DNA from: Trypanosoma brucei | Taxonomy: Eukaryota | Direction: 5' to 3' | Assembly: GCA_000002445.1 (NCBI GenBank) | Contig: CM000208.1 | Location: 3,808,001-3,872,000, forward strand | DNA length: 64,000 bases | In this document: in pieces, positions 2,352 to 46,990 of the stretch | Position numbering within the stretch: position 1 is the stretch's first letter | Layout of the letters: each line of letters opens with the position of its first letter | Translations under genes and position numbers: made by a program | Notes under the pieces: model-generated | The model's input: only the letters and a program-made list of their open reading frames with translations | Told to the model about the DNA's origin: nothing | The model's database searches: none

Positions 2352-2465
2352 GTCGCGCATGATGTGCTCAACTGGAATTACCATCTGAACGCGGGATACC
2401 GCAAGTCGATGAATTAATGCTACGTGCATTACCTCCGCTGTTACTCGTATCACTGACACCGCGAC
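2352..2465 (+). ncRNA. Candidate box C/D snoRNA, first in each repeat unit. Equivalent copies at +1208, +2416 and +3624.
   Basis: The 5' flank GTCGCG precedes a box C-like ATGATGT (2359-2365). Box D' CTGA is at 2385-2388, a C'-like GATGAA at 2409-2414 and box D CTGA at 2453-2456. The 3' flank CGCGAC (2460-2465) is the exact reverse complement of the 5' flank GTCGCG (2352-2357), giving the classic C/D terminal stem. Length is about 114 nt. Confidence 0.35.
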
Positions 2466-2495
2466 TGTTTCCTTTGTTTTGAGGCCCTCAGGGAA

Positions 2496-2580
2496 GCGCG
2501 TGATGACATACAAAGTTGTTTGCACATTTTCCGACACACCGTGAGCGAGTTACAATATTACAAGAACACCATCTGAATTT
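2496..2580 (+). ncRNA. Candidate box C/D snoRNA, second in each repeat unit.
   Basis: Perfect box C TGATGA at 2501-2506 (gcgcgTGATGAcat) and box D CTGA at 2573-2576 (caccatCTGAatt), 67 nt apart, which is a typical trypanosomatid C/D snoRNA size. No clear terminal stem. Confidence 0.3.
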
Positions 2581-3211
2581 TTGTCGACTCTACCCCTTCC
2601 TCCTTATTGGTGATGGCACAATGCATCTGTTCCCTTCTTTTATTTGGACCCTCTTCTTCCTACCCACTTACATACATGCACACACGTCTCTGTGTAAATG
2701 TATGCAGATATGTATACACACACACACTCTCTCTCTCTCCCGAATGCCGAGGCCTTTCTGTCTGTTCCCGGTCGGTGATTAGCAGTGCGTCTTCCACCTA
2801 ACGACCCTTGATGATTATGATACGATGCCTGGTCAACAGAACTATACTACACCAAATTTAGTAAATGAGACCACAGTGCAGGCAGAGGCTGGCAATCCTC
2901 GTCCGCCAGCAGCCGCCCCGGGCAGGATGGCGCCCGTGTCCCTGGCGTGACGTCTAATCGGTGCGGCGAGATGTGCTGACACTTTTGCGTCGCGTGATGA
3001 GGTGCAGAAGGCATGTCGCCGCTACGGCGGTGGCTCGCGTAGCCGTCTGGCTGTGCGCGTACTGTGAGCTACTGTACTCCATGGGTGAACAATCTCTGAT
3101 GACGTGTCACAGCGGGAGCAGTGTCGCTATGCGTTCCCGTCAGTAATACGGGCTAACGGTACGAAGCACGTGCGAGAGGTAAGTGGAAATCCGCTGCCTG
3201 TGAACACAGCA

Positions 3212-3300
3212 GGTACACATGATGCACACAATTCAATACTCACTCTGAACATCACTTGTCAGGAGGAATGTGATAACATGCACCACCAGCTGATCACATC
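3212..3300 (+). ncRNA. Candidate box C/D snoRNA, third in each repeat unit.
   Basis: Box C-like ATGATGC at 3219-3225, D' CTGA at 3245-3248, C'-like TGTGATAA at 3269-3276 and D CTGA at 3290-3293 (ccagCTGAtcac). Additional perfect TGATGA boxes at about 2809, 2995 and 3097 in the same unit lack an obvious CTGA partner. Confidence 0.25.
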
Positions 3301-6300
3301 CACGTGCATACATGCACACATGCCCTATCCCGCTTCCTTCACTTTTTCACACAGTCTGTGTGTCTGTGTGTCTGTGTGTGTGTGTGTACACCCGCATGTT
3401 TGTATACTTGTTTGTGACCATGCCAATGGACCCTTAATTACTCTATTTTTTTTTTCTCGTGGGCGGCTTTGAGACTGAGTGTGCGTCCTTAATACGCGAA
3501 CAACAAGCAAGGCCTCGTTGTTTGCTAGTTTGTAAGGAATGTTGTGGCCTGGAAACACTGTCGCGCATGATGTGCTCAACTGGAATTACCATCTGAACGC
3601 GGGATACCGCAAGTCGATGAATTAATGCTACGTGCATTACCTCCGCTGTTACTCGTATCACTGACACCGCGACTGTTTCCTTTGTTTTGAGGCCCTCAGG
3701 GAAGCGCGTGATGACATACAAAGTTGTTTGCACATTTTCCGACACACCGTGAGCGAGTTACAATATTACAAGAACACCATCTGAATTTTTGTCGACTCTA
3801 CCCCTTCCTCCTTATTGGTGATGGCACAATGCATCTGTTCCCTTCTTTTATTTGGACCCTCTTCTTCCTACCCACTTACATACATGCACACACGTCTCTG
3901 TGTAAATGTATGCAGATATGTATACACACACACACTCTCTCTCTCTCCCGAATGCCGAGGCCTTTCTGTCTGTTCCCGGTCGGTGATTAGCAGTGCGTCT
4001 TCCACCTAACGACCCTTGATGATTATGATACGATGCCTGGTCAACAGAACTATACTACACCAAATTTAGTAAATGAGACCACAGTGCAGGCAGAGGCTGG
4101 CAATCCTCGTCCGCCAGCAGCCGCCCCGGGCAGGATGGCGCCCGTGTCCCTGGCGTGACGTCTAATCGGTGCGGCGAGATGTGCTGACACTTTTGCGTCG
4201 CGTGATGAGGTGCAGAAGGCATGTCGCCGCTACGGCGGTGGCTCGCGTAGCCGTCTGGCTGTGCGCGTACTGTGAGCTACTGTACTCCATGGGTGAACAA
4301 TCTCTGATGACGTGTCACAGCGGGAGCAGTGTCGCTATGCGTTCCCGTCAGTAATACGGGCTAACGGTACGAAGCACGTGCGAGAGGTAAGTGGAAATCC
4401 GCTGCCTGTGAACACAGCAGGTACACATGATGCACACAATTCAATACTCACTCTGAACATCACTTGTCAGGAGGAATGTGATAACATGCACCACCAGCTG
4501 ATCACATCCACGTGCATACATGCACACATGCCCTATCCCGCTTCCTTCACTTTTTCACACAGTCTGTGTGTCTGTGTGTCTGTGTGTGTGTGTGTACACC
4601 CGCATGTTTGTATACTTGTTTGTGACCATGCCAATGGACCCTTAATTACTCTATTTTTTTTTTCTCGTGGGCGGCTTTGAGACTGAGTGTGCGTCCTTAA
4701 TACGCGAACAACAAGCAAGGCCTCGTTGTTTGCTAGTTTGTAAGGAATGTTGTGGCCTGGAAACACTGTCGCGCATGATGTGCTCAACTGGAATTACCAT
4801 CTGAACGCGGGATACCGCAAGTCGATGAATTAATGCTACGTGCATTACCTCCGCTGTTACTCGTATCACTGACACCGCGACTGTTTCCTTTGTTTTGAGG
4901 CCCTCAGGGAAGCGCGTGATGACATACAAAGTTGTTTGCACATTATCCGACACACCGTGAGCGAGTTACAATATTACAAGAACACCATCTGAATTTTTGT
5001 CGACTCTACCCCTTCCTCCTTATTGGTGATGGCACAATGCATCTGTTCCCTTCTTTTATTTGGACCCTCTTCTTCCTACCCACTTACATACATGCACACA
5101 CGTCTCTGTGTAAATGTATGCAGATATGTATACACACACACACTCTCTCTCTCTCCCGAATGCCGAGGCCTTTCTGTCTGTTCCCGGTCGGTGATTAGCA
5201 GTGCGTCTTCCACCTAACGACCCTTGATGATTATGATACGATGCCTGGTCAACAGAACTATACTACACCAAATTTAGTAAATGAGACCACAGTGCAGGCA
5301 GAGGCTGGCAATCCTCGTCCGCCAGCAGCCGCCCCGGGCAGGATGGCGCCCGTGTCCTTGGCGTGACGTCTAATCGGTGCGGCGAGATGTGCTGACACTT
5401 TTGCGTCGCGTGATGAGGTGCAGAAGGCATGTCGCCGCTACGGCGGTGGCTCGCGTAGCCGTCTGGCTGTGCGCGTACTGTGAGCTACTGTACTCCATGG
5501 GTGAACAATCTCTGATGACGTGTCACAGCGGGAGCAGTGTCGCTATGCGTTCCCGTCAGTAATACGGGCTAACGGTACGAAGCACGTGCGAGAGGTAAGT
5601 GGAAATCCGCTGCCTGTGAACACAGCAGGTACACATGATGCACACAATTCAATACTCACTCTGAACATCACTTGTCAGGAGGAATGTGATAACATGCACC
5701 ACCAGCTGATCACATCCACGTGCATACATGCACACATGCCCTATCCCGCTTCCTTCACTTTTTCACACAGTCTGTGTGTCTGTGTGTCTGTGTGTGTGTG
5801 TGTACACCTGCATGTTTGTATACTTGTTTGTGACCATGCCAATGGACCCTTAATTACTCTATTTTTTTTTTCTCGTGGGCGGCTTTGAGACTGAGTGTGC
5901 GTCCTTAATACGCGAACAACAAGCAAGGCCTCGTTGTTTGCTAGTTTGTAAGGAATGTTGTGGCCTGGAAACACTGTCGCGCATGATGTGCTCAACTGGA
6001 ATTACCATCTGAACGCGGGATACCGCAAGTCGATGAATTAATGCTACGTGCATTACCTCCGCTGTTACTCGTATCACTGACACCGCGACTGTTTCCTTTG
6101 TTTTGAGGCCCTCAGGGAAGCGCGTGATGACATACAAAGTTGTTTGCACATTTTCCGACACACCGTGAGCGAGTTACAATATTACAAGAACACCATCTGA
6201 ATTTTTGTCGACTCTACCCCTTCCTCCTTATTGGTGATGGCACAATGCATCTGTTCCCTTCTTTTATTTGGACCCTCTTCTTCCTACCCACTTACATACA

Positions 6301-7258
6301 TGCACACACGTCTCTGTGTAAATGTATGCAGATATGTATACACACACACTCTCTCTCTCTCTCCCGAATGCCGAGGCCTTTCTGTCTGTTCCCGGTCGGT
6401 GATTAGCAGTGCGTCTTCCACCTAACGACCCTTGATGATTATGATACGATGCCTGGTCAACAGAACTATACTACACCAAATTTAGTAAATGAGACCACAG
6501 TGCAGGCAGAGGCTGGCAATCCTCGTCCGCCAGCAGCCGCCCCGGGCAGGATGGCGCCCGTGTCCCTGGCGTGACGTCTAATCGGTGCGGCGAGATGTGC
6601 TGACACTTTTGCGTCGCGTGATGAGGTGCAGAAGGCATGTCGCCGCTACGGCGGTGGCTCGCGTAGCCGTCTGGCTGTGCGCGTACTGTGAGCTACTGTA
6701 CTCCATGGGTGAACAATCTCTGATGACGTGTCACAGCGGGAGCAGTGTCGCTATGCGTTCCCGTCAGTAATACGGGCTAACGGTACGAAGCACGTGCGAG
6801 AGGTAAGTGGAAATCCGCTGCCTGTGAACACAGCAGGTACACATGATGCACACAATTCAATACTCACTCTGAACATCACTTGTCAGGAGGAATGTGATAA
6901 CATGCACCACCAGCTGATCACATCCACGTGCATACATGCACACATGCCCTATCCCGCTTCCTTCACTTTTTCACACAGTCTGTGTGTCTGTGTGTCTGTC
7001 TGTGTGTGTGTACACCTGCATGTTTGTATACTTGTTTGTGACCATGCCAATGGACCCTTAATTACTCTATTTTTTTTTTCTCGTGGGCGGCTTTGAGACT
7101 GAGTGTGCGTCCTTAATACGCGAACAACAAGCAAGGCCTCGTTGTTTGCTAGTTTGTAAGGAATGTTGTGGCCTGGAAACACTGTCGCGCATGATGTGCT
7201 CAACTGGAATTACCATCTGAACGCGGGATACCGCAGGATGATGTCTTGAAACTATACT

Positions 7259-9834: not shown

Positions 9835-12800
9835 ATGTCTGGTCTGACTTCACACAACATCTCAGCTACATCTATTCGTGTGCATGGAATCACACGTGAA
9901 CGTGATATGTGCGTTTTCTGCCGGAAGCGCTCTTCGCCACCACCTAATGATCCGCTGGCACCAGTATTTGCCTTCTTCTCGCTGGTTGACTGCCGTCACT
10001 ACGCGTGCCAACCGTGTGCTCTCGTGCATTGCGACAACGCTGGGCGGCATATACGTTGCCCCGCGTGTTGCGCGATTTCTCGTCTCGCGCAGTCGGGCCG
10101 CCGTCGCGGAAACCGTGTGGATGAACGAGTGCCAATAGATGACGGCGTATCGTCGGCGGCATCGCAGAGCTCAAAAAGAGTGTTGGCCCCACCGAAGCGT
10201 TCACTCTCCGTCACTGACCGGCGGAGACGTACGTCATCTGTTCAGTTCTCAACAAACTTAACATCGCCCAGTGGGCAGAAGGAGGCCCTCAGCACCGGCG
10301 GCTCTAACACGTCATTGACACTTGCCGCGGTCGGCCGGCTGCCAACCGACCCTAACTATAGCAAAGGCAAAGGGGATGAAGGAGGAACCGTTGCGGCCTT
10401 CAGCGAGGAGGAACGAATATCGGTCGATTTGTACACCATTAAGGGCACCGCTGCAAAACGCCCGCGTCGCACAACAGCTGAACGTGCCCGCAGTCAGCCG
10501 CTTCCTCCGGCAGAATATCGCTATTTGCCACCACCAACGCCGTTCCATCGCCCGCCGCCGCTAGTAATTCACACGATTGAGGAGGAAGAAGAGGTTGCGG
10601 CTTCATTCCAACTCATTGTAAGGGAAATCGAGCAAACTATCGCTGCTACGCTAGTAAAGGAGGCAGATGAGCGTGACACAATCGGAATTGCGGAAGCACA
10701 CCGCCGCAACGTCCTTTCAAAATTACGTGAAGAGGATGAAAGAAAGAGATTTGCAGCACATCACGAACTCAATGACGAGTTTTCTGATGCCAAATTAAGT
10801 CCTCGCACAACAACAAACGCATCAGACGGCCAAGTCAGTGAAACATCCGATGAAGGAATGTCAGAACTCTCAACACAACAAGACTCAATTCAAAAGAACT
10901 ACAAACAACCCATAGATCAAAAAGCAATGATCACAAAGGAAAGAACAGGAACACCTACCGCAGCGGAAAAACAAACAAAACACCAACAACAAACAATCAC
11001 CAAACAGAACACTGAAGAAGAAAAAAAAGAAGCAAAAAATGAAAACAATAAGGAGAGTAAAAAAAAACGGCGTGAGCGTGTTGAGGTTGCTACATGGGAT
11101 TCGGAACAACAGCTGCGGCTCTTTGAACAACTTATGGATCTCGCTCGTGATGAACAACAGCACCGTGCCAAAATACAGCGTGACGAAACTCGTATGCATG
11201 CGGAAATGGAACGAAGTGAGGCTAGCGATGTTGCAACAATCAAGGCTGCAATGGAGGCCATGGCAGAGTCAGCACGTAGAGAGCAGGAGGAATTATTGCG
11301 TGATGAGAAGGAAGAACGCTACACCATCCAAGAGGATGAGCGACGGCTACGGCGCAACATAACGCGACAGAGCGCGGAGCTCTCACTCGACGTCAGCATG
11401 CAGCATGTGCAACAACGTGGTAAGGAGGACGCACAAAGGGAATTGGATATGCTAAGGGTTGCACTGGAATCAACTGCTGTTGAAACCACTTCGCGCGCTC
11501 GCCTCAACCTCATTGTAACGGAGGAACTGAGGGCACGTGATTCCCTGTGCAGTGACGAAGCAAGTGAACGAGCCATGCACGCAGCAGAAGAGCGACGTGA
11601 GCGTGTTGAGGTTGCTACATGGGATTCGGAACAACAGCTGCGGCTCTTTGAACAACTTATGGATCTCGCTCGTGATGAACAACAGCACCGTGCCAAAATA
11701 CAGCGTGACGAAACTCGTATGCATGCGGAAATGGAACGAAGTGAGGCTAGCGATGTTGCAACAATCAAGGCTGCAATGGAGGCCATGGCAGAGTCAGCAC
11801 GTAGAGAGCAGGAGGAATTATTGCGTGATGAGAAGGAAGAACGCTACACCATCCAAGAGGATGAGCGACGGCTACGGCGCAACATAACGCGACAGAGCGC
11901 GGAGCTCTCACTCGACGTCAGCATGCAGCATGTGCAACAACGTGGTAAGGAGGACGCACAAAGGGAATTGGATATGCTAAGGGTTGCACTGGAATCAACT
12001 GCTGTTGAAACCACTTCGCGCGCTCGCCTCAACCTCATTGTAACGGAGGAACTGAGGGCACGTGATTCCCTGTGCAGTGACGAAGCAAGTGAACGAGCCA
12101 TGCACGCAGCAGAAGAGCGACGTGAGCGTGTTGAGGTTGCTACATGGGATTCGGAACAACAGCTGCGGCTCTTTGAACAACTTATGGATCTCGCTCGTGA
12201 TGAACAACAGCACCGTGCCAAAATACAGCGTGACGAAACTCGTATGCATGCGGAAATGGAACGAAGTGAGGCTAGCGATGTTGCAACAATCAAGGCTGCA
12301 ATGGAGGCCATGGCAGAGTCAGCACGTAGAGAGCAGGAGGAATTATTGCGTGATGAGAAGGAAGAACGCTACACCATCCAAGAGGATGAGCGGCGGCTAC
12401 GGCGCAACATAACACGACAGAGCGCGGAGCTCTCACTCGACGTCAGCATGCAGCATGTGCAACAACGTGGTAAGGAGGACGCACAAAGGGAATTGGATAT
12501 GCTAAGGGTTGCACTGGAATCAACTGCTGTTGAAACCACTTCGCGCGCTCGCCTCAACCTCATTGTAACGGAGGAACTGAGGGCACGTGATTCCCTGTGC
12601 AGTGACGAAGCAAGTGAACGAGCCATGCACGCAGCAGAAGAGCGACGTGAGCGTGTTGAGGTTGCTACATGGGATTCGGAACAACAGCTGCGGCTCTTTG
12701 AACAACTTATGGATCTCGCTCGTGATGAACAACAGCACCGTGCCAAAATACAGCGTGACGAAACTCGTATGCATGCGGAAATGGAACGAAGTGAGGCTGA

Positions 12801-15081
12801 CGGAATCTTGGCATGCGGTGCTCAGAGTGAAGGAGCCGATTCTTTTGAAGTTGCTTCTTCGGGGTGTGATTGTGTTTTTCGTCCTTCTGGTGCTGATTGT
12901 GCCTCTTTCTCTCCGTATGTTTGTCGAGGGGGTGGTGTTTTGCCGCTTGATGTTGAAATTCCTGTTGGTTTGGCGTATTCAGCGCATGGCAGCACATCAG
13001 CTGAGGTTATTTCAGTTGACTATACCTCTTTTTTGCCTATTGTTGGCAGTGACGCTCAGGGTGAATCATCTTTGTGGAATACTCTTGACGATGATGGTGG
13101 CGTTGTTTTTGGTGATGTTTGCGCGGGTGGGGACGATGTTGGCATTGATGTAAATGACGTTGAGAGTGTGCACATCAGCAGGGGATGTTCAACCGTACTT
13201 GACGCCGGTGGCGTTGGCGCAACTGCTGAAGTATATGCTTTAGATGAAAAGTGGCGTGATGGGACTGCGGTAAGCGCTGAGCCCCCTCGCATTCCAGCAA
13301 GTAGGATTTGTCGTACTTGCTTCTCCACTGATACGAGTAGATGTGCGCGTTGTGGCACAATGGTGTGCTCTCATTGTATTCCTTCAGGTTCGTTTCGTCA
13401 GTGCTGTACGTTACATCACCTTACCATTATCAACAAGAGGTGCAGGGTAATGACTGAAACGAGGGTGCACGCTAGGTGGGAGTGCCGGAGGTTGTTTAGG
13501 CAGTTCCGACTCGAGCAACGGATGAGAAGGCGGAGAGAAAATGTGGTAAACACTCGAGGGTTTGATGTAGTCGTTCTTACACCGGAGCAAAAGGGTGACA
13601 ACTCTAACCTGCACGAGGTTAAGACGCCTCCTAGAGTCACTCGTCGATTCTTAAACCAAGAAAATGACAGTGAGGAAGATGCTGCATGGAAATCACATTA
13701 TCTTGAGTCATGGCCATCTGATTCGGGGCAGATGCCACCTTGCGGACTCAAACAAGAGCGGTTTGATGAATTTAATGATGCCGAAAATAGTATGAACCTA
13801 ACGGCAGATAATGAGCCCAAGACCGAAAGAAAAAGAGCCACAGCATTCTTTGTACCATTAGGTAATAGCGCCGAACCAAGGAGGCCCAAACCTCCGACAC
13901 CTAGAAACTATGTTCCCGGAATTATCCACAATTGTACGAAAGCTCCGCAGAGCAAGCGAGCAGTTTCAAGAATGCGTTTCCGGCGCCTTCGGAGGCAAAA
14001 CGCAACGGGTAATACTAAGAACACAACGTTGAATTCTGCTGCTGCAGGAAGAAATGTACAGGAACATCGCGCCGCAAGCAGTTCCAAGCCGCGGCCACAA
14101 GAAAGCTGGGCACGGCAAAGACCTGTGCAGCGTCAGGGTGCCTTTATTACGGCAGACCCCGTGAGAGGGATCACGAGAAGCGGCCCAACGTCCAATTCCT
14201 GGCGCCGCCGGAATTTCCGCACGAAAAGCCGGTCACCAGCTGGGTATGGCGGCAAAGCAAGTGCTTGCAATTTCCACGGTGATCGATGCGGGGACGCCAT
14301 GGCACTGGGACGCACATATTACGACGGTAACCCCGTGAGGAGTAAGGGGTTGGCTTACGTTCTGGACGAAGAGCCACCACAGAGAGGATATGAGCCGACG
14401 CCACCAACCAGACTGCAGAGCAACCGGGTAGTCAAATCGGGGGTACACAGCGGCGAAGAACATACAAGGATGGGGTGTCAACACGAGTGGGAGCCTGACC
14501 AGCAATGTGTACCATTATTTGAGGAGTTTCATGCGTCTTCCTCGACCCCACCCTGGCGGCCTCCGTTCTCGCGTGACCCACCACCTCCGCGCCGCAACCA
14601 CAGGAACACAAACATAGGAGGTCGAACACACCGTACGCTAGCCCCCTTTCCAGCACGCCAACGCCTTTGCCACCCGCGGCAACGCAGTGCCGCCGACCTC
14701 ACACGCAACGCAAGTCCCGGGCAGGCGTGCAGCAGATTCCATTACAATCCACTGGACGACGTTGATCGTGCTGCCTTCGTTGGTGGACCGCGCGGAGCAC
14801 AACGGCAACCGCCTACGAGTGTAGCGGAGCCATGTATTACCGTGCATCTCTTTCCGCCTTCTTCGTACGGAGGGGGAGCGGGAACTTCTGGACGGCATCC
14901 GTTGCGGGGTCCAACCGCAAGGAGACACTCAAGTCGTGCCCACAGGCCCTCACCAGCTCGAGCGGCTTCACCTCCGTGGCGAACAGACCTAAACACCCCG
15001 TTCATTTGTCCCCCATGGAACGCGAACCGGCCTGACACGTTTATTGCAAAGCCGTATACCCGCACCACGTGCAGAAGGTAG
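9835..15081 (+). CDS. Large RING-finger protein (1748 aa) with internal 175-aa charged tandem repeats and a low-complexity C-terminal half.
   Basis: N-terminal C3HC4-type RING signature (CVFC...CRHYACQPC...CPACC). About 3.3 perfect copies of a 175-aa E/R/Q-rich helical repeat. A second Cys cluster CRTCFSTDTSRCARCGTMVCSHCIPSGSFRQCC. R/P/S-rich tail. A 5.2-kb ORF cannot arise by chance. Confidence 0.6.
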   Translation: MSGLTSHNISATSIRVHGITRERDMCVFCRKRSSPPPNDPLAPVFAFFSLVDCRHYACQPCALVHCDNAGRHIRCPACCAISRLAQSGRRRGNRVDERVPIDDGVSSAASQSSKRVLAPPKRSLSVTDRRRRTSSVQFSTNLTSPSGQKEALSTGGSNTSLTLAAVGRLPTDPNYSKGKGDEGGTVAAFSEEERISVDLYTIKGTAAKRPRRTTAERARSQPLPPAEYRYLPPPTPFHRPPPLVIHTIEEEEEVAASFQLIVREIEQTIAATLVKEADERDTIGIAEAHRRNVLSKLREEDERKRFAAHHELNDEFSDAKLSPRTTTNASDGQVSETSDEGMSELSTQQDSIQKNYKQPIDQKAMITKERTGTPTAAEKQTKHQQQTITKQNTEEEKKEAKNENNKESKKKRRERVEVATWDSEQQLRLFEQLMDLARDEQQHRAKIQRDETRMHAEMERSEASDVATIKAAMEAMAESARREQEELLRDEKEERYTIQEDERRLRRNITRQSAELSLDVSMQHVQQRGKEDAQRELDMLRVALESTAVETTSRARLNLIVTEELRARDSLCSDEASERAMHAAEERRERVEVATWDSEQQLRLFEQLMDLARDEQQHRAKIQRDETRMHAEMERSEASDVATIKAAMEAMAESARREQEELLRDEKEERYTIQEDERRLRRNITRQSAELSLDVSMQHVQQRGKEDAQRELDMLRVALESTAVETTSRARLNLIVTEELRARDSLCSDEASERAMHAAEERRERVEVATWDSEQQLRLFEQLMDLARDEQQHRAKIQRDETRMHAEMERSEASDVATIKAAMEAMAESARREQEELLRDEKEERYTIQEDERRLRRNITRQSAELSLDVSMQHVQQRGKEDAQRELDMLRVALESTAVETTSRARLNLIVTEELRARDSLCSDEASERAMHAAEERRERVEVATWDSEQQLRLFEQLMDLARDEQQHRAKIQRDETRMHAEMERSEADGILACGAQSEGADSFEVASSGCDCVFRPSGADCASFSPYVCRGGGVLPLDVEIPVGLAYSAHGSTSAEVISVDYTSFLPIVGSDAQGESSLWNTLDDDGGVVFGDVCAGGDDVGIDVNDVESVHISRGCSTVLDAGGVGATAEVYALDEKWRDGTAVSAEPPRIPASRICRTCFSTDTSRCARCGTMVCSHCIPSGSFRQCCTLHHLTIINKRCRVMTETRVHARWECRRLFRQFRLEQRMRRRRENVVNTRGFDVVVLTPEQKGDNSNLHEVKTPPRVTRRFLNQENDSEEDAAWKSHYLESWPSDSGQMPPCGLKQERFDEFNDAENSMNLTADNEPKTERKRATAFFVPLGNSAEPRRPKPPTPRNYVPGIIHNCTKAPQSKRAVSRMRFRRLRRQNATGNTKNTTLNSAAAGRNVQEHRAASSSKPRPQESWARQRPVQRQGAFITADPVRGITRSGPTSNSWRRRNFRTKSRSPAGYGGKASACNFHGDRCGDAMALGRTYYDGNPVRSKGLAYVLDEEPPQRGYEPTPPTRLQSNRVVKSGVHSGEEHTRMGCQHEWEPDQQCVPLFEEFHASSSTPPWRPPFSRDPPPPRRNHRNTNIGGRTHRTLAPFPARQRLCHPRQRSAADLTRNASPGQACSRFHYNPLDDVDRAAFVGGPRGAQRQPPTSVAEPCITVHLFPPSSYGGGAGTSGRHPLRGPTARRHSSRAHRPSPARAASPPWRTDLNTPFICPPWNANRPDTFIAKPYTRTTCRR
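11068..12800 (+). repeat. In-frame tandem repeats of 525 bp (175 aa), about 3.3 copies, inside the RING protein CDS.
   Basis: The unit starts RRERVEVATWDSEQQLRLFEQLMDLARDEQQHRAKIQRDETRMHAEMERSEASD and ends DEASERAMHAAEE. Period 525 is seen in ORF-track recurrences (11537/12062/12587; 11844/12369). Nucleotide copies are identical apart from 1-2 SNPs. The antisense ORFs in this span are repeat artefacts. Confidence 0.9.
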
Positions 15082-15171
15082 CAATCCTGTGAAGAAAGGG
15101 GAGACCTTACTTCATATAAGTACGTTTTGTTCCCCTCTTTCGCTCACTCTGCGAATGGATGTAATTGGTAT

Positions 15172-15239
15172 TGTTAGTTCAAGGGCGCTGGCGTAACTTT
15201 GCCAGCTGTTAAGTTACGCCAGCGCCCTTGAACCTAACA
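15172..15239. repeat. Near-perfect inverted repeat (hairpin): a 23-bp perfect stem plus a 5-bp extension with a 1-nt bulge, and an 11-nt loop containing palindromic CAGCTG.
   Basis: gttcaagggcgctggcgtaactt (15177-15199) is the exact reverse complement of aagttacgccagcgcccttgaac (15211-15233). The flanks tgttag and ctaaca extend the stem. It lies 90 nt downstream of the stop of the RING-repeat gene. Confidence 0.85.
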
Positions 15240-16086
15240 GTACCAAAGATTGTGAGAGAGGTGTGAGCTATCAATACGCTCGCAGATGATACTTTAGCCT
15301 ATGGATTACTCGAGATGGAGAAAGAATGTTCTGTTGATATTTTTTATCTTTGTGTATAGGTGGTAAGGTCAAAGATCAAGTAAGGCACGAGTGACGTTTG
15401 CGTGTCGGGAGAGTATTGAATAAAAAAGGGAATAGAGGTATGCGTGCCTCGTTTGCGTATATAGATAGAATGTGAGGGTGATCATATGTATTTGGAGTTT
15501 GAAAGGAAAAAATAAAAGAAGTGCATCTTGACGTAGGGAATTTCACTCTGCCGTTAACTACATGGATATAGAAGGGGATAAAAAGAATATCATAGACGCG
15601 TAATTTGAAGGAAGTAACAATACTTTTGAATTTGACTAGACGTCGTCTTTTTTTTTTTTTAATGTCACCATCGTTACTTGTTATTGTTTCTCACCCGTAT
15701 CATTTCCCCCATTCGTATTCTTGTGTGCGTAACGTTACGATTTGGCAAAGACGCGAAATCAATGAACTTTGTCAGTGATTTTCTGTTGAAGTCTTTTTCG
15801 CCTTGTATTTATAGGGGCTCACGTGAAACTACTTTGCCTATTTCTTCCTTGTCTCTTACCATCTGTATCATGCACTACGCGTGGTGTGTTCGTTAGTTAA
15901 GATCAAATCATTAAAAGGGATATAGAGGAGCACAAGACAGAGGAAGCAAAGGACACATATATATATATACATCTGTACATATATTTTCAGTCCAAGGTTA
16001 CAAGGGACAGAAAGAACTTCATCATCAATAACAGTAAAACATATTACTCAAGGGGTGTTTCACTTCAACGGTTTACTGAAGTAAAT

Positions 16087-17034
16087 ATGAAATCAGAGGG
16101 GACGCCGATACCGACGAGAACGCCGAAGAGCGGGAAGAAGAAGAAGGAATTCACGCAGTTGGCACTCGCGAAGGACCATCGTTTCAACTGGATGGGTCAT
16201 GATGGTACAGAGTCGGAGACGCTCAACCTTGATCTCCTCCGCATCACCAATGAGGGCTGTCTACGCTTCAGTGATCAGGCTCGCCGCGACTACGTCATAA
16301 CGATGATTCGTGCCCGCCTTGGACAAATCAAGCTCGCCCTCGGTCTCTGCACGGAAGAGGACCTCGAGGATGATGAGGATGAAGACGACGACGAAGAGAA
16401 CAGCGAAGCCCAGGTTCTGTGGAGACTCGCCGTCAGGAGAGTAGAATTGCAGCAGGAGGCAGAGGAAAGGGGAGACAGCGGGGAGCCCCTTTACTACGGG
16501 ACGCCTACTGAGGAGGAAGTGGCAGAGGGCTACAGGAACTTCGTCAAGGGCACGCGTGTACTGCTGTCACATCTGAAGCAGACGTTTGTCTCGTACATCG
16601 ACGGCCGTGAATTCAACACGGTTGCGCAGTTGGTGGAGCATAACAATGCTCTTCGCCCAACGTATGAGGAAACTGCCGCCGCTGTCCAGCACCCCAAGTT
16701 CGAGCTGCCGCCTGTGGAAGAGTTTGACGCAGAACCCCTTCAGGCCTACGTTGAAAAGAGAAATGAGTGTCGCATGAAGATTGACGCGCTGCGCTGCTGC
16801 GGCGGTGGCGCGTACGCAATGCGGTACATGCGTGAGGAAGAGCTTGACGAAATTGGAACCCCACGTATCTACGTTGATATGGAGGACACGGAAGCCACTC
16901 TTGACGAAGAACTCCAGAACGCCCGCCAGAACCTTGCGAAGGAACGCTGGGAGTACAACTGCCGTGCGGCGAGGGTTTACCGCCGCTTGCAGAAATTCCT
17001 GGCCAGGCGGGCCGCCGCTGCTGAGCAATCGTAA
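16087..17034 (+). CDS. Hypothetical protein with an acidic tract.
   Basis: ATG verified. Acidic run EDLEDDEDEDDDEENSE. No recognisable domain. The overlapping minus-strand ORFs (16567-17379, 16613-17122) are judged antisense artefacts. Confidence 0.5.
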   Translation: MKSEGTPIPTRTPKSGKKKKEFTQLALAKDHRFNWMGHDGTESETLNLDLLRITNEGCLRFSDQARRDYVITMIRARLGQIKLALGLCTEEDLEDDEDEDDDEENSEAQVLWRLAVRRVELQQEAEERGDSGEPLYYGTPTEEEVAEGYRNFVKGTRVLLSHLKQTFVSYIDGREFNTVAQLVEHNNALRPTYEETAAAVQHPKFELPPVEEFDAEPLQAYVEKRNECRMKIDALRCCGGGAYAMRYMREEELDEIGTPRIYVDMEDTEATLDEELQNARQNLAKERWEYNCRAARVYRRLQKFLARRAAAAEQS

Positions 17035-18265
17035 GTTTATCACTTGACAAGTATGGTAACAGTGATGAAGCGGACCGCAAAGAAACCATTGGAAGGTGAA
17101 GAAGGAGCAGAGGCGGTAGCAAAAGGAGTGCGTAGGCATGTGAGTGGAATTTCGATGTGCTGGACTAGCTTGATTTGATTTTTTGTTTTTTGTTTTTGTT
17201 TTTTTCCCTCCTCTTGTTTGTCCTCCTCTGGTCACCCAGCAGACCTCTCGAACGGTCTCCTGCTCATCACGCAAGAGGGTAAAAAGAAACGGGATGTGCA
17301 AATAAAAGCGTGAACAAGAAGGATGAAAGGGGGGAAGCAAATGAGAAGTGAAGGGGAAAATGTATTTATAGTTTGACACTCACGTACACCCATACAAAGG
17401 TACGTGATGCCAAAGCATCAGCGTATAACGTGAATGTCTGCTACACTGTCTTTCCAAATGTCAAAAAAAAAAATACAGTAAACGACAGAGGAGCCAAAAA
17501 GATTAGGAAGGGGAGACATGCTTATATATATATCTAAATATATATATGTGAGACACGAAAAATGTACGGAGTGCGCAGAGTATGTCTCAGAAGAAAAAAA
17601 CAAGGAAGGCTGTGCAAACGAATAATGTACTACGGAGGGAAATATATGGGATTTGTTAATAAACCAAACCAAACGAACAAAAATAAGACAGAACAAAATG
17701 AAAAGTAGTGAAAAGGGGAAACTGATGAAATATCTCGCCCGAAATATTGCGTTGGTCACTAGGGGGAAGGGGAGTTACAATTAAAGAGAATGAAAGACGA
17801 TAGGACAAATATTTGTATTCATTTGCAAGATGGGGAAAGAGGGAAGGGAACATTGGCTTTTCCCTCTTGTTTTTCTTTCTTTTAAAAACAAAGTGTGTGA
17901 AAGCTGCAGTTGGGGCTTTCGCGTGCGGTGAGAAAGAGGATCTACTTGAGCGCCATCAATTTTTTAAAAAACAACAAAGTTACATAAATATATTACTTTT
18001 TCAGCCCTTCTCCCTATTTTGTGCTGGTGTGTCACTAACTTGCCCAGATCTCTCAGCCTTCTCGCTGCCAAGGAAAGAACAAGAAAAGAGAGGAGGCGAT
18101 AATCATTCTTCTTTTCCGCTTGTAATCTTGCCCCTTTTTGTGAAAGGATGGATTGAATTTTTGTAGTAAATCCTGGTGACGCACATATTTCCCCAGGCTC
18201 TGTATTTCTTTGGGATTTTTGTACCCTTAAACGGTGTTCGTTGAAGAGAAATGGCGGGGGGCGTG

Positions 18266-19858: not shown

Positions 19859-20341
19859 TGGACAGAGCATAGAGATAAATGATGTGCCATGAGCAACGCG
19901 CAGAAGCGGGCCTGAGGCCGTCCCCAAACTCAAAAACTCTGATGATCCCCGTCTCGAAGCCATTTTGCGCCCCCCACATCACATAGATTCAGGGGGTTGG
20001 TTCTTTCATGTGTGTCTCTTCAACACTTAATCTACTATCCCACGTCCCCCTTTCTCTTGATGCCACCTACTCATTTCTGCATTCACCCTCACTTTCCCCT
20101 TGATCACCTTGTCGCACGTTATTTCTAATGCAGAGCCAGAGGCACACAATTTTAATGTATATTCTTCATCCCCTTTGTTTCGTACCGATGGACCGTGCGT
20201 CGTAGTTTTATTAGGGTAAGGCGATTACCACCCCTGCGTCACCCTAACGGCCCCAGCCGGATACGTAGCCGGCACGTGCAACCACGCGAAAGCTGTAGCA
20301 GAAATTGACCGGGGGCTCACGCTTGGTGATACTCTCACGTG

Positions 20342-22684
20342 ATGTCTCTGGGATGTGATCAACACACGCACAACAGATTTAATGGACCCACAGAACACAG
20401 TGCCAGCTCGCACGGTATGCCATCTGAAGCCGGAGAAAAACGTTATGCCGCAGTGCATGATGCACAGCCGATTCAGGGTAGTGGTAAGCCGGCGGACAGT
20501 TCGGAATCACATGACCAGGCGCCCTACCCAGGCCCAAATCTGGGGCTGGTAACGGAGGCTATGACAATGGAGCGTGCGGTTCGCGTCCCACGGGCACTAC
20601 GAGCGGCAACGAGGCGAACGATGCTTGACGTGCTCGGCCACCTACATCTCACTGGTTGCCGCGAAGCCCACAACCACAGAGCCAATGCAACTTCCTGGCA
20701 AGATTACGCCCCACAGCGGCAGCAGTGGGAACACCAAATAGCAAGAGACACACGTACAGAGCACCATGGGTCGGACGAAAAGGAAGGAACAATACGCCAG
20801 CCCCCAAAGGATTTGTCGAGAAGCCTGCTGCATCTTCTACCCCCACGGCGAAGTGAGGTATCTGGTGGGTGTTTTGGTTTCAGCACAAATTCACGAGACT
20901 ACGGTGATGGTATCCCACCTTACGATTCCACAGCCGGTCCTGATGATGTCCGACCGAAATGGCGGCAGGGGATGGCAAATGCCGCGGAACGCGAGCAAAG
21001 CGATCGTAGGGTTGAAAGACAGCAGTCGAAACAGCGTTCATTGCTTTCTATACTCGAGGAAAGCGACTCAGAACCGAAGCACAACGCACGCCAAAAGTCT
21101 GGGCGCCAGTTCAATGAATTAGGCAATGTTGCACAAAAAAGGGGGAGGTGCTGTCCGTTGGATATGGATCTGGAAGATCCCCGTGATTCAGCCGGAAAGC
21201 CAGTAAAGCGTGCTACATCCTCATGGGGACGCTGGGAGGGCAATGATCTGATTGAGCCAGCACATTCCATTGCAGGCAGTGGGCCTCCCGCAACGCGTCC
21301 AAACAGAGTAGAGGTATTATTGGATGACGGAACATTGGGTCGGGGGTCAGTTTTTACCAGAAGTAGCACAGGTTCAACTGCGTCAGGAAGGGGTGAAGGC
21401 AGACATAGTTTAGCTGATATCCTCGCAACCGACGATGCGGATGATCGTTTTCGTGCCACGAATACGGTAGAGAGGCCAGAGGTGACTGCGGGGCGCGCAA
21501 AAGGTTCCGCTGCAATAAGGCGGTTGGCAGGTAACCCAACAGCGGAGCGAGTCATTGCCTACCTTACTCGCTCATTCAATGAATGGAAATTGAGTAGAAG
21601 TCTGTCTCATGCCCCTAAAAGGAATGATGAAACATACCCGATAACAGGGGCTACGTGTAGCTCGGCCATGCCACAGGGGTCTGGCACAGTTAGGGTCCAT
21701 TTGGGCTTTTTGGTTTCAAAAGTTGAGTGTGCTTTTTCTCTCTACATGCTCCGCGGGAGAATTGTGTGGGCGGATGAAAAAGTCAAAAGGGAAATTGAAA
21801 GCGACAACTTTCGCTCGTGTTTTACAGGGTTAAGGAGTGATGAACAAGGAGACTTCCTTGAACAGCAACAGCGGGGGATAGCAACAAACATTGAATGGAC
21901 CATCGTTTTAACGACCGATGCGTTCCGCCCGAATGTTGTGTCATCGGGTAAGAACATTTACCTCTCCCGACCGTTCTTCGTGTATCCTGCTGCACATGTT
22001 ATTGTTTCTTCCCTTAACATCACCACAGACGCTGCACAGATGCCCAATGGGCAGCACACCAAACGTCACCACTTCGAGAGCGGTGACGGGTTTGGGGAGT
22101 CGTGCAGTGACAAAAACAGGAATCACACTGATCACGCCAAAGGCGCGGCGACAACGGATACGATAACACCAGACCGCCGTCACACGGTCTCGCATGCCTT
22201 TTCCACTGATCCCTCTCCGTCTTGGGTCTACGACCCCCTGGTGCGCGAGGTCAAAAATAGGACTCCAACAGGCAGTTCGCACGGCATGATATGTGGGAGA
22301 GAACAGGGGAGAACCACCGTCATGCGATTGGGGCCACACATCGGACTCCACCCATGTGGAGAAGGGGCCGACAGTACCAAAAAACCTTCACATTCAGCGG
22401 CAAGCGACGCCCTTCATACAGACGTGGAAAACGACCCGGTGGGTGCCGGATTTCCCCGCGGCCCCGGGGAGGAATGGGAAGTTCCACTGGAGCTACTCTT
22501 GTCGCTGAGATGTCAGATCGCCGATAACATCCTCTCACCTTCCCCAAAGACCTCGCAGGGATGGGGTGGAGAAGCCATATTGGCTGAGGGTCATTCCTCT
22601 GATAGTCAGTTCTTGACTCCACCTCGCTCGCAGTTGAGACTGTCCTCGTCGCTTTCTTCTTTGCTAACGCCTGATGGTTGTTGA
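20342..22684 (+). CDS. Hypothetical protein.
   Basis: 780-aa ORF. The track start at 20339 is GTG; the first ATG is at 20342. No recognisable domain; a long uninterrupted ORF co-directional with its neighbours. Confidence 0.45.
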   Translation: MSLGCDQHTHNRFNGPTEHSASSHGMPSEAGEKRYAAVHDAQPIQGSGKPADSSESHDQAPYPGPNLGLVTEAMTMERAVRVPRALRAATRRTMLDVLGHLHLTGCREAHNHRANATSWQDYAPQRQQWEHQIARDTRTEHHGSDEKEGTIRQPPKDLSRSLLHLLPPRRSEVSGGCFGFSTNSRDYGDGIPPYDSTAGPDDVRPKWRQGMANAAEREQSDRRVERQQSKQRSLLSILEESDSEPKHNARQKSGRQFNELGNVAQKRGRCCPLDMDLEDPRDSAGKPVKRATSSWGRWEGNDLIEPAHSIAGSGPPATRPNRVEVLLDDGTLGRGSVFTRSSTGSTASGRGEGRHSLADILATDDADDRFRATNTVERPEVTAGRAKGSAAIRRLAGNPTAERVIAYLTRSFNEWKLSRSLSHAPKRNDETYPITGATCSSAMPQGSGTVRVHLGFLVSKVECAFSLYMLRGRIVWADEKVKREIESDNFRSCFTGLRSDEQGDFLEQQQRGIATNIEWTIVLTTDAFRPNVVSSGKNIYLSRPFFVYPAAHVIVSSLNITTDAAQMPNGQHTKRHHFESGDGFGESCSDKNRNHTDHAKGAATTDTITPDRRHTVSHAFSTDPSPSWVYDPLVREVKNRTPTGSSHGMICGREQGRTTVMRLGPHIGLHPCGEGADSTKKPSHSAASDALHTDVENDPVGAGFPRGPGEEWEVPLELLLSLRCQIADNILSPSPKTSQGWGGEAILAEGHSSDSQFLTPPRSQLRLSSSLSSLLTPDGC

Positions 22685-41371: not shown

Positions 41372-41592
41372 ATTACTTTCCTCAGGCATAAAATGTTTGG
41401 ACGACGCGTTTACGCCAGTGCGGCAGTTCCCCGCCGTATGTGGCCGGCACTTCACATTCAGAGCAGTAGCCAAGCACTGCGTATCCTTCCTTCACTCGCA
41501 CCACTTCACCCGACTATAACTCGGCATGTTGCACTTGTGTCCGCCCCGCTCACAAGCCTCTCCGCGGTCGGTTTGTGTGAATCCTCAACGGA
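41372..41592 (+). repeat. Copy 1 of a 221-bp perfect direct duplicate; the second copy is at 45868-46088.
   Basis: ttactttcctcaggcataaaATGtttggacgacgcg...gtgtgaatcctcaacgg is identical base for base in both copies. Each contains an ATG (41393 and 45892) starting the same 66-aa N-terminus. Confidence 0.9.
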
Positions 41593-41725: not shown

Positions 41726-42421
41726 AAAGCTTCTTCTCATTATAAAAGAGGGGGGCTGAAGGTGAAGGGCCCCCCCCCCCAACAGGGAGGTTTGAAGGGA
41801 TGAGATGCTTGGATCGCCTACATGTCGTTCGTGTTGATCGGCTATTCTTCACAGCTGCATCATGTCCTCGCTTCACTTTCATTTCAACGGACGGTGGGGC
41901 TTTCCTCCCCGTGCATGCGCTCCCCTCACCACTCCGTCGCGGGTGTGCGCTCACAAAGCACACAAGTTTGTAATGTGTGCTTGTGTACATACGCACGTGC
42001 GTGTGCCCGCGCTCTTATCGCAGCAGTAGTAAATTTAAGTGGCCAACAAAAGTGATACTAAAACTACAAAAACAGTCGTTTGGGAGTAAAAATGTCTTGG
42101 TATGAGTGGGCCCGGACTGTGTGGCCCAACCAGAAAAACTTTTGGCATTTTCTCGCCCATGAGCCCACGCCCGAAGGGGTGAGGAAAATTCATTACATAC
42201 ATTTATGCATACACATCTTACCCCCTCCCATTGTGGATGTTACATTCCTCTTCTTTTCAACGGGCGGCCCAATCCCTTAACGAAGCCGCCTTCTCACCTC
42301 GTGAAGAGCATCATTTGAGGGCTAGCGTGTACGTATACCTTCTTTCCGTATTTGCTACCCGCGCTTATGGTTTTTGTAACGGTGAAAGAAAAGGCAACTA
42401 ATATAATTGCTTGCATATATT

Positions 42422-42424
<3 letters not shown>

Positions 42425-42461
<37 letters not shown>
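42425..42461. repeat. (TA)18 microsatellite.
   Basis: Read directly from the sequence, about 110 nt upstream of the GUP1-like ATG. Confidence 0.95.
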
Positions 42462-42464
<3 letters not shown>

Positions 42465-42572
42465 CGCACAGCATTAACTGCTGCTATTGCCTCATAAACT
42501 TTCGAGAAGTGCAACCTCAGCGTACAATTCCGTGCAGGTGTGTGAATTGGTGAGGGGAGAGTGCTGTTGGGT

Positions 42573-45867: not shown

Positions 45868-46088
45868 CATTACTTTCCTCAGGCATAAAATGTTTGGACG
45901 ACGCGTTTACGCCAGTGCGGCAGTTCCCCGCCGTATGTGGCCGGCACTTCACATTCAGAGCAGTAGCCAAGCACTGCGTATCCTTCCTTCACTCGCACCA
46001 CTTCACCCGACTATAACTCGGCATGTTGCACTTGTGTCCGCCCCGCTCACAAGCCTCTCCGCGGTCGGTTTGTGTGAATCCTCAACGG
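45868..46088 (+). repeat. Copy 2 of the 221-bp direct duplicate.
   Basis: Identical to 41372-41592. Downstream sequence diverges immediately after cctcaacgg. Confidence 0.9.

Positions 46089-46339: not shown

Positions 46340-46379
<40 letters not shown>
46340..46379. repeat. (TA)20 microsatellite.
   Basis: Read directly from the sequence, about 70 nt downstream of the stop of ORF 45892. Confidence 0.95.

Positions 46380-46951: not shown

Positions 46952-46954
<3 letters not shown>

Positions 46955-46990
<36 letters not shown>
46955..46990. repeat. (GT)18 microsatellite.
   Basis: Read directly from the sequence. A shorter (TG)10 lies at 27950-27969. Confidence 0.95.

What the first reader, a model, noticed from the sequence alone, without database searches (positions are those of the whole stretch)
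15172..15239. A perfect 23-bp inverted repeat, about 28 bp with extension, lies immediately 3' of the RING-repeat gene
The 68-nt element would fold into a very stable hairpin (GC-rich stem) with an 11-nt loop carrying a CAGCTG palindrome. Perfect palindromes of this length are rare in kinetoplastid intergenic DNA and are not explained by any neighbouring feature. Three readings are possible. It may be a cis-acting 3'UTR stability or translation element for the upstream transcript. It may be a foldback or miniature inverted-repeat remnant. Or it may be a palindrome-induced assembly artefact. It sits about 90 nt past the stop codon, in the likely 3'UTR.
Basis: seen in the sequence. Interest (0 to 1): 0.55.

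Follow-up and report, generated by a model that had tools for sequence, protein, structure and literature searches.

The report
Hairpin born from replication template switch
The long hairpin behind the RING-repeat gene of this Trypanosoma brucei chromosome is real, but two of the four related genomes compared lack it, and the comparison shows one arm was written in a single step as a reverse-complement copy of the neighbouring sequence, so it is most likely a young mutational by-product and not an evolved control element.

Summary
Arms 15177-15199 and 15211-15233 are a perfect 23-nt inverted repeat with an 11-nt loop. The stem extends to 35 bp (15165-15199 / 15211-15246) with one G·U wobble and one bulged C. 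RNA MFE is -61.9 kcal/mol (z = -11).

The window is T. brucei-group chromosome 10. Comparing four related assemblies explains the hairpin. T. equiperdum OVI carries it. T. b. gambiense DAL972 and T. b. equiperdum IVM-t1 have the same loop and right arm, but an unrelated 35 nt where the left arm should be. In the window those 35 nt are replaced by 33 nt that match the reverse complement of the right arm at 32 of 33 positions. This cluster holds 23 of the roughly 63 differences in 5.7 kb.

That is the signature of a short-range template-switch mutation (four-point type 1-4-3-2), which makes a hairpin in one event. The hairpin-less allele has no structure (z = -0.17), so the hairpin arose de novo. 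An 11-nt loop inversion 7 kb away separates the same haplotypes.

The MITE and assembly-artefact readings are rejected. A conserved 3'UTR element is unsupported. Polarity rests on parsimony because no outgroup DNA was reachable. Dicer processing is untested.

The parts
15165..15199 (+). Left arm of the hairpin. Positions 15165-15197 are the derived segment (the template-switch target): 33 nt replacing the 35 nt seen in the hairpin-less allele.
   Evidence: Alignments A1 and A2. The segment TTGGTATTGTTAGTTCAAGGGCGCTGGCGTAAC matches the reverse complement of the right arm at 32/33 (OVI right arm) or 31/33 (DAL972 and IVM-t1 right arm). 23 differences fall in these 33 nt against about 1 per 100 nt in the flanks.
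15171..15171 (+). T that forms a G·U wobble (a G·T mismatch in DNA) in the stem; inferred to be a C-to-T change after the switch.
   Evidence: Both the hairpin-less allele and the reverse complement of the right arm have C at this position. RNAfold pairs it.
15200..15210 (+). 11-nt loop TGCCAGCTGTT with the CAGCTG palindrome; pre-existing sequence, identical in all alleles.
   Evidence: invariant columns.
15211..15246 (+). Right arm, pre-existing sequence and the template-switch source. It has an extra C at 15233/15234 that is private to the window.
   Evidence: Present in L001, L002 and L004. The extra C is absent from all three other sequences. C15227 is shared with OVI and is G in DAL972 and IVM-t1.
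9835..15081 (+). Upstream ORF (1748 aa; C3HC4-like N-terminus, 525-bp internal repeats). Its inferred 3'UTR contains the hairpin.
15646..15660 (+). Polypyrimidine tract, the presumed trans-splicing signal of the downstream gene. It places the upstream poly(A) site at roughly 15540-15560 (inferred).
   Evidence: Sequence; rule from PMC9639853.
16087..17034 (+). Downstream ORF (315 aa, conserved hypothetical). Used as the anchor to fetch orthologous loci.

Best explanation
The hairpin is the product of one short-range template-switch mutation during DNA synthesis. In the four-point model this is type 1-4-3-2, with mirror form 3-2-1-4.

On an ancestral, unstructured sequence of the kind still found in T. 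b. gambiense DAL972 and T. b. equiperdum IVM-t1, the nascent strand left its template. It then copied about 33 nt either from its own newly made strand (a fold-back over the 11-nt loop, primed on a 2-nt TT/AA microhomology) or from the opposite parental strand, and returned. The result was that 35 nt were overwritten by the reverse complement of the adjacent 33 nt, creating a 35-bp stem in one step.

The new allele now segregates in the T. brucei group on one haplotype (the window and T. equiperdum OVI). It has since picked up a C-to-T change at 15171, which is a G·U wobble, and in the window alone an extra C at 15233/15234.

The element is transcribed within the inferred 3'UTR of the RING-repeat gene. 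Most probably it has no evolved function and is a neutral or mildly consequential polymorphism.

Shown: the two alleles, the reverse-complement relationship, the mutation cluster, and the lack of structure in the other allele. Inferred: the polarity, the exact switch route, the 3'UTR location, and neutrality.
For: Alignments A1 and A2 show that the loop and right arm are shared by all four sequences, while the left arm differs wholesale between the alleles.

The derived 33-mer matches the reverse complement of the right arm at 32/33. The alternative 35-mer has no other copy, on either strand, in the 64-kb window or in about 21 kb of L001 and L004.

23 differences lie in 33 nt, against a background of about 1% over 5.7 kb.

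The changed segment (15165-15197) coincides with the paired segment (15165-15199), as expected if pairing was created by the change.

The hairpin-less allele folds no better than shuffles (-30.5 against a mean of -30.0 kcal/mol, z = -0.17). The hairpin allele has z = -11.

The window and OVI share every linked SNP over 2.2 kb. DAL972 and IVM-t1 share the other haplotype.

A second template-switch-type change separates the same haplotypes 7 kb away. It is an exact in-place reverse complement of the 11-nt spacer 22071-22081 between GTCACC and GGTGAC.

The mechanism is established. It produces inverted repeats in 31% of high-confidence human-chimpanzee events, and copied fragments of 14 nt or more are treated as reliable (PMC5453318). 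It creates perfect RNA hairpins and miRNA stems in a single event (PMC8794818; PMC10710096).
Against: No outgroup DNA could be obtained. The T. congolense ortholog has no contig on record, and the T. vivax spacer is unalignable. Polarity therefore rests on parsimony and mechanism.

Only four assemblies were compared, with no raw reads.

The OVI contig begins inside the hairpin, at window position 15172, so its outer left arm and left flank are unseen.

Microhomology at the switch points is short (2 nt on the loop side).

Neutrality is assumed, not measured. The post-event C-to-T change preserves RNA pairing as G·U, which is compatible with tolerance or with selection at the RNA level.
Confidence: 0.8

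Rival explanations
1. Reverse polarity. The hairpin is ancestral in T. brucei, and the DAL972/IVM-t1 allele lost its left arm, for example through processing of an extruded hairpin followed by repair with filler DNA.
For: No outgroup was available, and the two alleles are each seen in two assemblies. Palindromes are known to be fragile (general knowledge).
Against: This would require replacing exactly one whole arm with 35 nt of unrelated sequence of nearly the same length. That sequence has no source within 10 kb on either side or in the window. Palindrome breakage normally leaves deletions, not equal-length substitutions. The forward direction needs only one well-documented event.
Confidence: 0.07
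2. Evolved cis-acting 3'UTR element. The stem-loop is bound by a protein or otherwise controls stability or translation of the RING-repeat mRNA, and is maintained by selection.
For: The element lies in the inferred 3'UTR and is extremely stable. The only substitution in the stem keeps RNA pairing as G·U.
Against: It is absent from two of four T. brucei-group genomes. Their allele is unstructured, yet their downstream flank is otherwise about 99% identical. The syntenic T. vivax spacer has no inverted repeat. No Rfam family matches; the best hit scores 24 bits against a 150-bit threshold. In the window the stem has already acquired a bulge.
Confidence: 0.06
3. Dicer substrate. Whatever its origin, the 35-bp stem is cut by TbDCL1 or TbDCL2. 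This would yield AGO1-loaded small RNAs of about 24 nt and lower the host mRNA in cis, making it a nascent miRNA-like or hairpin-siRNA locus.
For: T. brucei has an active RNAi pathway, and fold-back transcripts from inverted repeats yield siRNAs (PMC3447711). The geometry (35-bp stem, 11-nt loop) matches that quoted as preferred for animal pri-miRNAs. Template-switch-born hairpins have become miRNAs in primates.
Against: The siRNA-producing inverted repeats in T. brucei have arms of 422-10,011 bp, and that study found no miRNAs. The CTU and probe files of that paper do not flag this locus; the 'miscellaneous loci' file was not read. T. brucei has no Drosha-type enzyme to free an internal hairpin (my own knowledge, not tested). 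No small-RNA data could be examined here.
Confidence: 0.1
4. Remnant of a foldback transposon or MITE.
For: It is a short element with terminal inverted repeats and a short spacer.
Against: The hairpin-less allele already has the loop and right arm, so nothing was inserted. 33 nt replace 35 nt, with no target-site duplication. There is no second copy in the window or in any fetched locus.
Confidence: 0.01
5. Assembly or cloning artefact (a palindromic chimera).
For: Palindromes disturb assemblers. The OVI contig ends exactly where perfect symmetry ends.
Against: The same allele, with the same linked SNPs, appears in two independent assemblies. In the window it is flanked on both sides by sequence collinear with the other strains. 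It also carries a bulge and a mismatch, which a fold-back chimera would not have.
Confidence: 0.02

Closest known systems
Short-range template-switch mutations, four-point model type 1-4-3-2 / 3-2-1-4 (Löytynoja & Goldman 2017, PMC5453318)
   Same: A cluster of differences between closely related sequences is fully explained by copying a nearby fragment in reverse complement. The event creates an inverted repeat in otherwise collinear sequence. The copied fragment (33 nt) is well above the 14-nt reliability cut-off.
   Different: The events were described in human and great-ape genomes. No report for trypanosomatids was found in the paper library. Here polarity is not fixed by an outgroup.
De novo RNA hairpins and miRNA genes created by template switching (Mönttinen & Löytynoja 2022, PMC8794818; Mönttinen et al. 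2023, PMC10710096)
   Same: A long, near-perfect stem arises in one step from unstructured sequence inside a transcribed region. Mismatches and bulges appear only afterwards. The geometry is a 35-bp stem with a loop of more than 10 nt.
   Different: Those hairpins are shown to be processed into miRNAs, while no small-RNA evidence exists here. T. brucei is reported to lack miRNAs (PMC3447711).
Quasipalindrome correction (Ripley model) in bacteria and yeast
   Same: The mechanism is an intra- or inter-strand switch of the nascent strand at a hairpin-forming site.
   Different: The classical model perfects a pre-existing near-palindrome. Here the other allele has no detectable pre-existing complementarity (z = -0.17).
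siRNA-producing long inverted repeats of T. brucei (Tschudi et al. 2012, PMC3447711)
   Same: An inverted repeat in an RNAi-competent trypanosome that would be transcribed into fold-back RNA.
   Different: The arms there are 422-10,011 bp, against 35 bp here. This locus is not among the seven listed.

Membership tests
Template-switch mutation (four-point model, type 1-4-3-2 / 3-2-1-4) | Cluster of substitutions and indels between two closely related, otherwise collinear sequences | tested here: met
   23 differences within 15165-15197 against about 1 per 100 nt in 5.7 kb of flanks.
Template-switch mutation (four-point model, type 1-4-3-2 / 3-2-1-4) | The cluster is explained by a reverse-complement copy of a nearby fragment of at least 14 nt | tested here: met
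   The 33-nt segment matches the reverse complement of sequence 13 nt downstream at 32/33.
Template-switch mutation (four-point model, type 1-4-3-2 / 3-2-1-4) | Switch-point order 1<4<3<2 (source does not overlap target), which yields an inverted repeat with the spacer unchanged | tested here: met
   In L004 coordinates the points are 1 = 9076, 4 = 9112, 3 = 9127 and 2 = 9159. The spacer is identical in all alleles.
Template-switch mutation (four-point model, type 1-4-3-2 / 3-2-1-4) | Derived state assigned by outgroup or ancestral reconstruction | not testable with these tools
   T. congolense DNA is not on record and the T. vivax spacer is unalignable. Polarity is inferred from parsimony only.
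Template-switch mutation (four-point model, type 1-4-3-2 / 3-2-1-4) | Both alleles confirmed in raw reads | not testable with these tools
   No read data were available. Each allele is nevertheless seen in two independent assemblies.
MITE / foldback transposable element | Presence/absence polymorphism is an insertion of the whole element, with target-site duplication | tested here: not met
   The hairpin-less allele retains the loop and right arm. 33 nt substitute for 35 nt, and there is no duplication.
MITE / foldback transposable element | Multiple dispersed copies | tested here: inconclusive
   No other copy exists in the 64-kb window or in the fetched loci. The whole genome could not be searched.
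Conserved 3'UTR regulatory stem-loop | Structure conserved among strains and related species | tested here: not met
   The structure is absent in DAL972 and IVM-t1. The T. vivax syntenic spacer has no inverted repeat.
miRNA / hairpin-siRNA locus | Discrete small RNAs from the stem, dependent on Dicer and loaded in Argonaute | not testable with these tools
   No small-RNA data are accessible. The published T. brucei survey found no miRNAs.
miRNA / hairpin-siRNA locus | Match to a curated RNA family | tested here: not met
   The best Rfam hit is MIR1027 at 24.4 bits against a gathering score of 150.
T. brucei siRNA-producing long inverted repeats | Arms of hundreds to thousands of bp (422-10,011 bp) | tested here: not met
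   The arms here are 35 nt.

The most novel reading that the evidence does not exclude
The template-switch-born hairpin is a nascent small-RNA locus in an organism thought to have no miRNAs. On this reading the 35-bp stem in the 3'UTR is diced by TbDCL1 or TbDCL2. That would give allele-specific cis-destabilisation of the RING-repeat mRNA and one or two discrete AGO1-bound small RNAs. Because hairpin and hairpin-less alleles still segregate, the birth of such a locus could be observed directly.
Probability: 0.08. Interest if true: 0.7.

Novelty: new member of a known kind. Interest (0 to 1): 0.35.

Why it matters
This turns an unexplained palindrome into a clean case of one-step hairpin birth by template switching. 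Both the before and after alleles are still present in natural T. brucei-group genomes, and a second event (a loop inversion in a coding region) lies 7 kb away on the same haplotype split.

I found no report of this mutation class in trypanosomatids in the paper library. It matters practically because such events appear as dense SNP and indel clusters that confuse variant calling, and they break short-read assemblies, as in the OVI contig.

T. brucei has RNAi but no known miRNAs. The two alleles therefore form a natural experiment on what a 35-bp dsRNA stem in a 3'UTR does to an mRNA.

The element itself is most likely functionally ordinary.

Tried and rejected
- **Outgroup polarity.** The T. 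congolense ortholog of the downstream gene (P0002) has no contig on record. The T. vivax locus (L005) was fetched, but its spacer shares no alignable sequence and has no inverted repeat.
- **More strains.** Exact-protein look-ups with the 1748-aa, 471-aa, 613-aa and 812-aa window ORFs found nothing. The source assembly itself appears not to be retrievable. I infer the window is TREU927-like, because its GUP1 protein is identical to the entry shared by TREU927 and OVI.
- **Known RNA families.** Rfam at gathering threshold found only the snoRNA cluster. A permissive scan of the spacer gave one meaningless 24-bit miRNA-family hit. No tRNAs were found.
- **Published small-RNA loci.** The Tschudi et al. 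tables and the supplements I searched do not list this locus, though coordinates could not be matched rigorously.
- **Source of the alternative 35-mer.** No 12-mer of it occurs elsewhere in the window or loci on either strand. The idea that the hairpin-less allele is itself a local template-switch product was therefore rejected.
- **Further template-switch events.** A scan of about 22 kb more of haplotype comparison (window against OVI and DAL972, 32-54 kb) found only microsatellite indels.
- **Hairpin 2 as a second polymorphic event.** It is present in all four T. brucei-group sequences, so its origin cannot be read from these data.

Full report
**1. What is there**

The window is from chromosome 10 of a Trypanosoma brucei-group genome. 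Rfam finds four tandem copies of the TB10Cs3 snoRNA cluster at 2356-6802. Every protein anchor retrieved T. brucei-group assemblies.

At the reported site, the repeat finder gives arms 15177-15199 and 15211-15233. They are 23 nt long, 100% complementary and separated by 11 nt. The loop TGCCAGCTGTT carries CAGCTG.

The stem continues outward. 15165-15177 pairs with 15234-15246, 12 of 13 complementary. The odd pair is T15171 opposite G, which is a G·U wobble in RNA. One unpaired C lies at 15233/15234.

RNAfold pairs the whole 35-bp stem. The MFE is -61.9 kcal/mol against -26.5 ± 3.2 for shuffles (z = -11.1). With DNA parameters the value is -38.7 kcal/mol (z = -13.9).

The arm sequence is unique in the window, even allowing 3 mismatches. 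In 40 composition-preserving shuffles, no perfect inverted repeat with a spacer of 30 nt or less exceeded 13 nt.

**2. Context**

The upstream ORF is 9835-15081 (1748 aa). It has a C3HC4-like N-terminus that Pfam detects only below threshold, and 525-bp internal repeats. It ends 84 nt before the element.

The next ORF starts at 16087. It is preceded by a polypyrimidine tract at about 15646-15660. In T. brucei, polyadenylation occurs roughly 100 nt upstream of the downstream polypyrimidine tract (PMC9639853). The hairpin therefore lies inside the inferred 3'UTR of the RING-repeat gene. This is an inference, not a measurement.

**3. The decisive comparison**

I used the 315-aa downstream protein as an anchor and fetched the orthologous locus from three other assemblies:
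- T. b. equiperdum IVM-t1 (L001, GCA_003543875.1)
- T. equiperdum OVI (L002, GCA_001457755.2)
- T. b. gambiense DAL972 (L004, GCA_000210295.1)

Organism names come from the source names attached to proteins on the same contigs.

Alignment A2 shows that all four sequences share the loop and the right arm. L001 and L004, however, carry ATGGTCCCGCACTGGGCTGCACACTCAGATGTGTG (35 nt) where the window has TTGGTATTGTTAGTTCAAGGGCGCTGGCGTAAC (33 nt).

The window's 33-mer matches the reverse complement of the adjacent right arm at 32 of 33 positions. Over 5.7 kb the window differs from DAL972 by about 63 mismatches, and 23 differences are packed into these 33 nt.

The 35-mer of the other allele has no other copy, on either strand, in the 64-kb window or in about 21 kb around the site in L001 and L004. 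The hairpin-less allele folds no better than shuffled sequence (z = -0.17).

OVI carries the hairpin, without the extra C, and shares every linked SNP with the window over 2.2 kb. DAL972 and IVM-t1 share the alternative haplotype.

**4. Interpretation**

This pattern is the signature of a short-range template-switch mutation. In the four-point model of Löytynoja and Goldman, the nascent strand leaves the template at point 1. It copies a nearby fragment from point 2 to point 3 in reverse complement, and returns at point 4. [quoted passage not shown] Copied fragments of 14 nt or more are regarded as reliable (PMC5453318).

In L004 coordinates the points are 1 = 9076, 4 = 9112, 3 = 9127 and 2 = 9159.

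Read in the mirror orientation, the event is a simple fold-back. After copying the right arm and the loop, the nascent strand snapped back on itself. It paired its terminal AA with the TT that complements A15211-A15212 (2-nt microhomology), copied its own right-arm complement, and returned to the template at 15164. An inter-strand switch gives the same product, and the two routes cannot be distinguished here.

The same authors showed that such events create perfect RNA stems, including miRNA precursors, in a single step from unstructured sequence. Bulges and mismatches then arise afterwards (PMC8794818; PMC10710096).

That matches this case. T15171 is C both in the old allele and in the template's complement, so it is a later C-to-T change. 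The extra C at 15233/15234 is private to the window.

**5. Polarity**

I could not obtain an outgroup. T. congolense DNA is not on record, and the T. vivax spacer neither aligns nor contains an inverted repeat. The direction from unstructured to hairpin rests on three arguments:
- It needs one known event, whereas the reverse needs exact replacement of one whole arm by 35 nt from no identifiable source.
- The altered segment coincides with the paired segment.
- The 35-mer is not a local copy of anything.

I put about 0.8 on this account, including polarity.

**6. Corroboration nearby**

I scanned the collinear 12-14 kb between the window and L001/L004 for difference clusters that match reverse complements. 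This found exactly one more.

At 22071-22081 the window has ACTTCGAGAGC, while both other genomes have GCTCTCGAAGT. That is an exact in-place reverse complement of the 11-nt spacer between GTCACC and GGTGAC. It lies inside ORF 20339-22684 and changes HFES to RSRS without a frameshift.

This is the spacer-inversion class of template switch, and it separates the same two haplotypes. A further 22 kb compared with OVI and DAL972 showed none.

**7.

- **MITE or foldback element: rejected.** Nothing was inserted, there is no target-site duplication, and there are no other copies in the sequence I could search.
- **Assembly artefact: rejected, as far as assemblies can show.** The allele appears in two independent assemblies, sits in collinear flanks on both sides in the window, and carries asymmetric imperfections. 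The palindrome does disturb assembly, though. The OVI contig starts at window position 15172, exactly where perfect symmetry ends.
- **Evolved 3'UTR element: unsupported.** The hairpin is missing from two of four genomes and from T. vivax, and it matches no Rfam family. An incidental effect on the mRNA is not excluded.

**8. What it might do**

T. brucei has two Dicer-like enzymes and AGO1, and inverted repeats are known siRNA sources. Those repeats, however, have arms of 422-10,011 bp, and no miRNAs were found (PMC3447711).

A 35-bp stem with an 11-nt loop has the geometry quoted for animal pri-miRNAs. Trypanosomes lack a Drosha-type enzyme; that statement is from my own knowledge and was not tested here.

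I rate dicing or cis-destabilisation at about 0.1. It is the most interesting reading that remains open, and the segregating alleles make it directly testable.

**9. Verdict**

The feature is real and striking, and it is explained by a known mutational mechanism. It is a new example, in a trypanosome, of one-step hairpin birth by template switching. It is still polymorphic and probably has no evolved function. Interest is moderate to low (0.35). Novelty: new member of a known kind.

Noticed in passing
window 22071-22081 (stems 22065-22070 / 22082-22087), inside ORF 20339-22684: There is an 11-nt in-place micro-inversion between haplotypes. The window has ACTTCGAGAGC, while IVM-t1 and DAL972 have GCTCTCGAAGT. 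It is flanked by the inverted repeat GTCACC/GGTGAC and changes HFES to RSRS in a 781-aa ORF without a frameshift. This is a second template-switch-type event on the same haplotype split. Its polarity is unknown.
   Followed up: partly
window 44358-44418: This is the second long hairpin in the window: 24-nt arms, 23/24 complementary, 13-nt loop. It straddles the stop codon (44400-44402) of the GUP1/MBOAT gene (ORF 42561-44402). The left arm encodes the conserved C-terminus NQIKQLKE, and the right arm runs into the 3'UTR. It is present in the window, OVI, a Logan run (ERR7929164) and DAL972. DAL972 has two non-compensated G-to-A differences, and the Logan run has one. It may be an older template-switch product, but this was not testable without T. 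congolense DNA.
   Followed up: partly
L002:1-74 (T. equiperdum OVI contig CZPT02000456.1): The short-read contig begins inside the hairpin, exactly at the outer end of the perfectly symmetric part (window 15172). This suggests the palindrome broke the assembly. The OVI copy lacks the bulged C.
   Followed up: yes
window about 10885-13150 (inside ORF 9835-15081); L001:1-6716; L004:1-6710: The 525-bp (175-aa) repeat unit of the RING-repeat gene varies strongly in copy number between strains. The window has about 3.3 copies, while IVM-t1 and DAL972 have ten or more. A 1-nt deletion in DAL972 at window position 14935 appears to shorten its C-terminus.
   Followed up: no
window 41372-41591 and 45869-46088: A perfect 220-bp direct repeat (220/220) flanks the GUP1/MBOAT gene. 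It is also present in OVI and DAL972.
   Followed up: partly
window 2356-6802: There are four tandem copies (period 1208 bp) of a snoRNA cluster: TBR12, TBR6, TBR4, TB10Cs3H2, TBR2 and TB10Cs3H1. All score far above the Rfam gathering thresholds. This is a known cluster, and it identifies the chromosome.
   Followed up: no
window 42415-42461, 46340-46379, 45672, 46953-46963: (AT)n and (TG)n microsatellites differ in length between the window, OVI and DAL972.
   Followed up: no
L003 (Logan ERR7929163), window 15970-17258 equivalent: This contig carries window-type SNPs at 15970-16537 and DAL972-type SNPs at 16734-17258. It is either a recombinant haplotype or a collapsed heterozygote.
   Followed up: no
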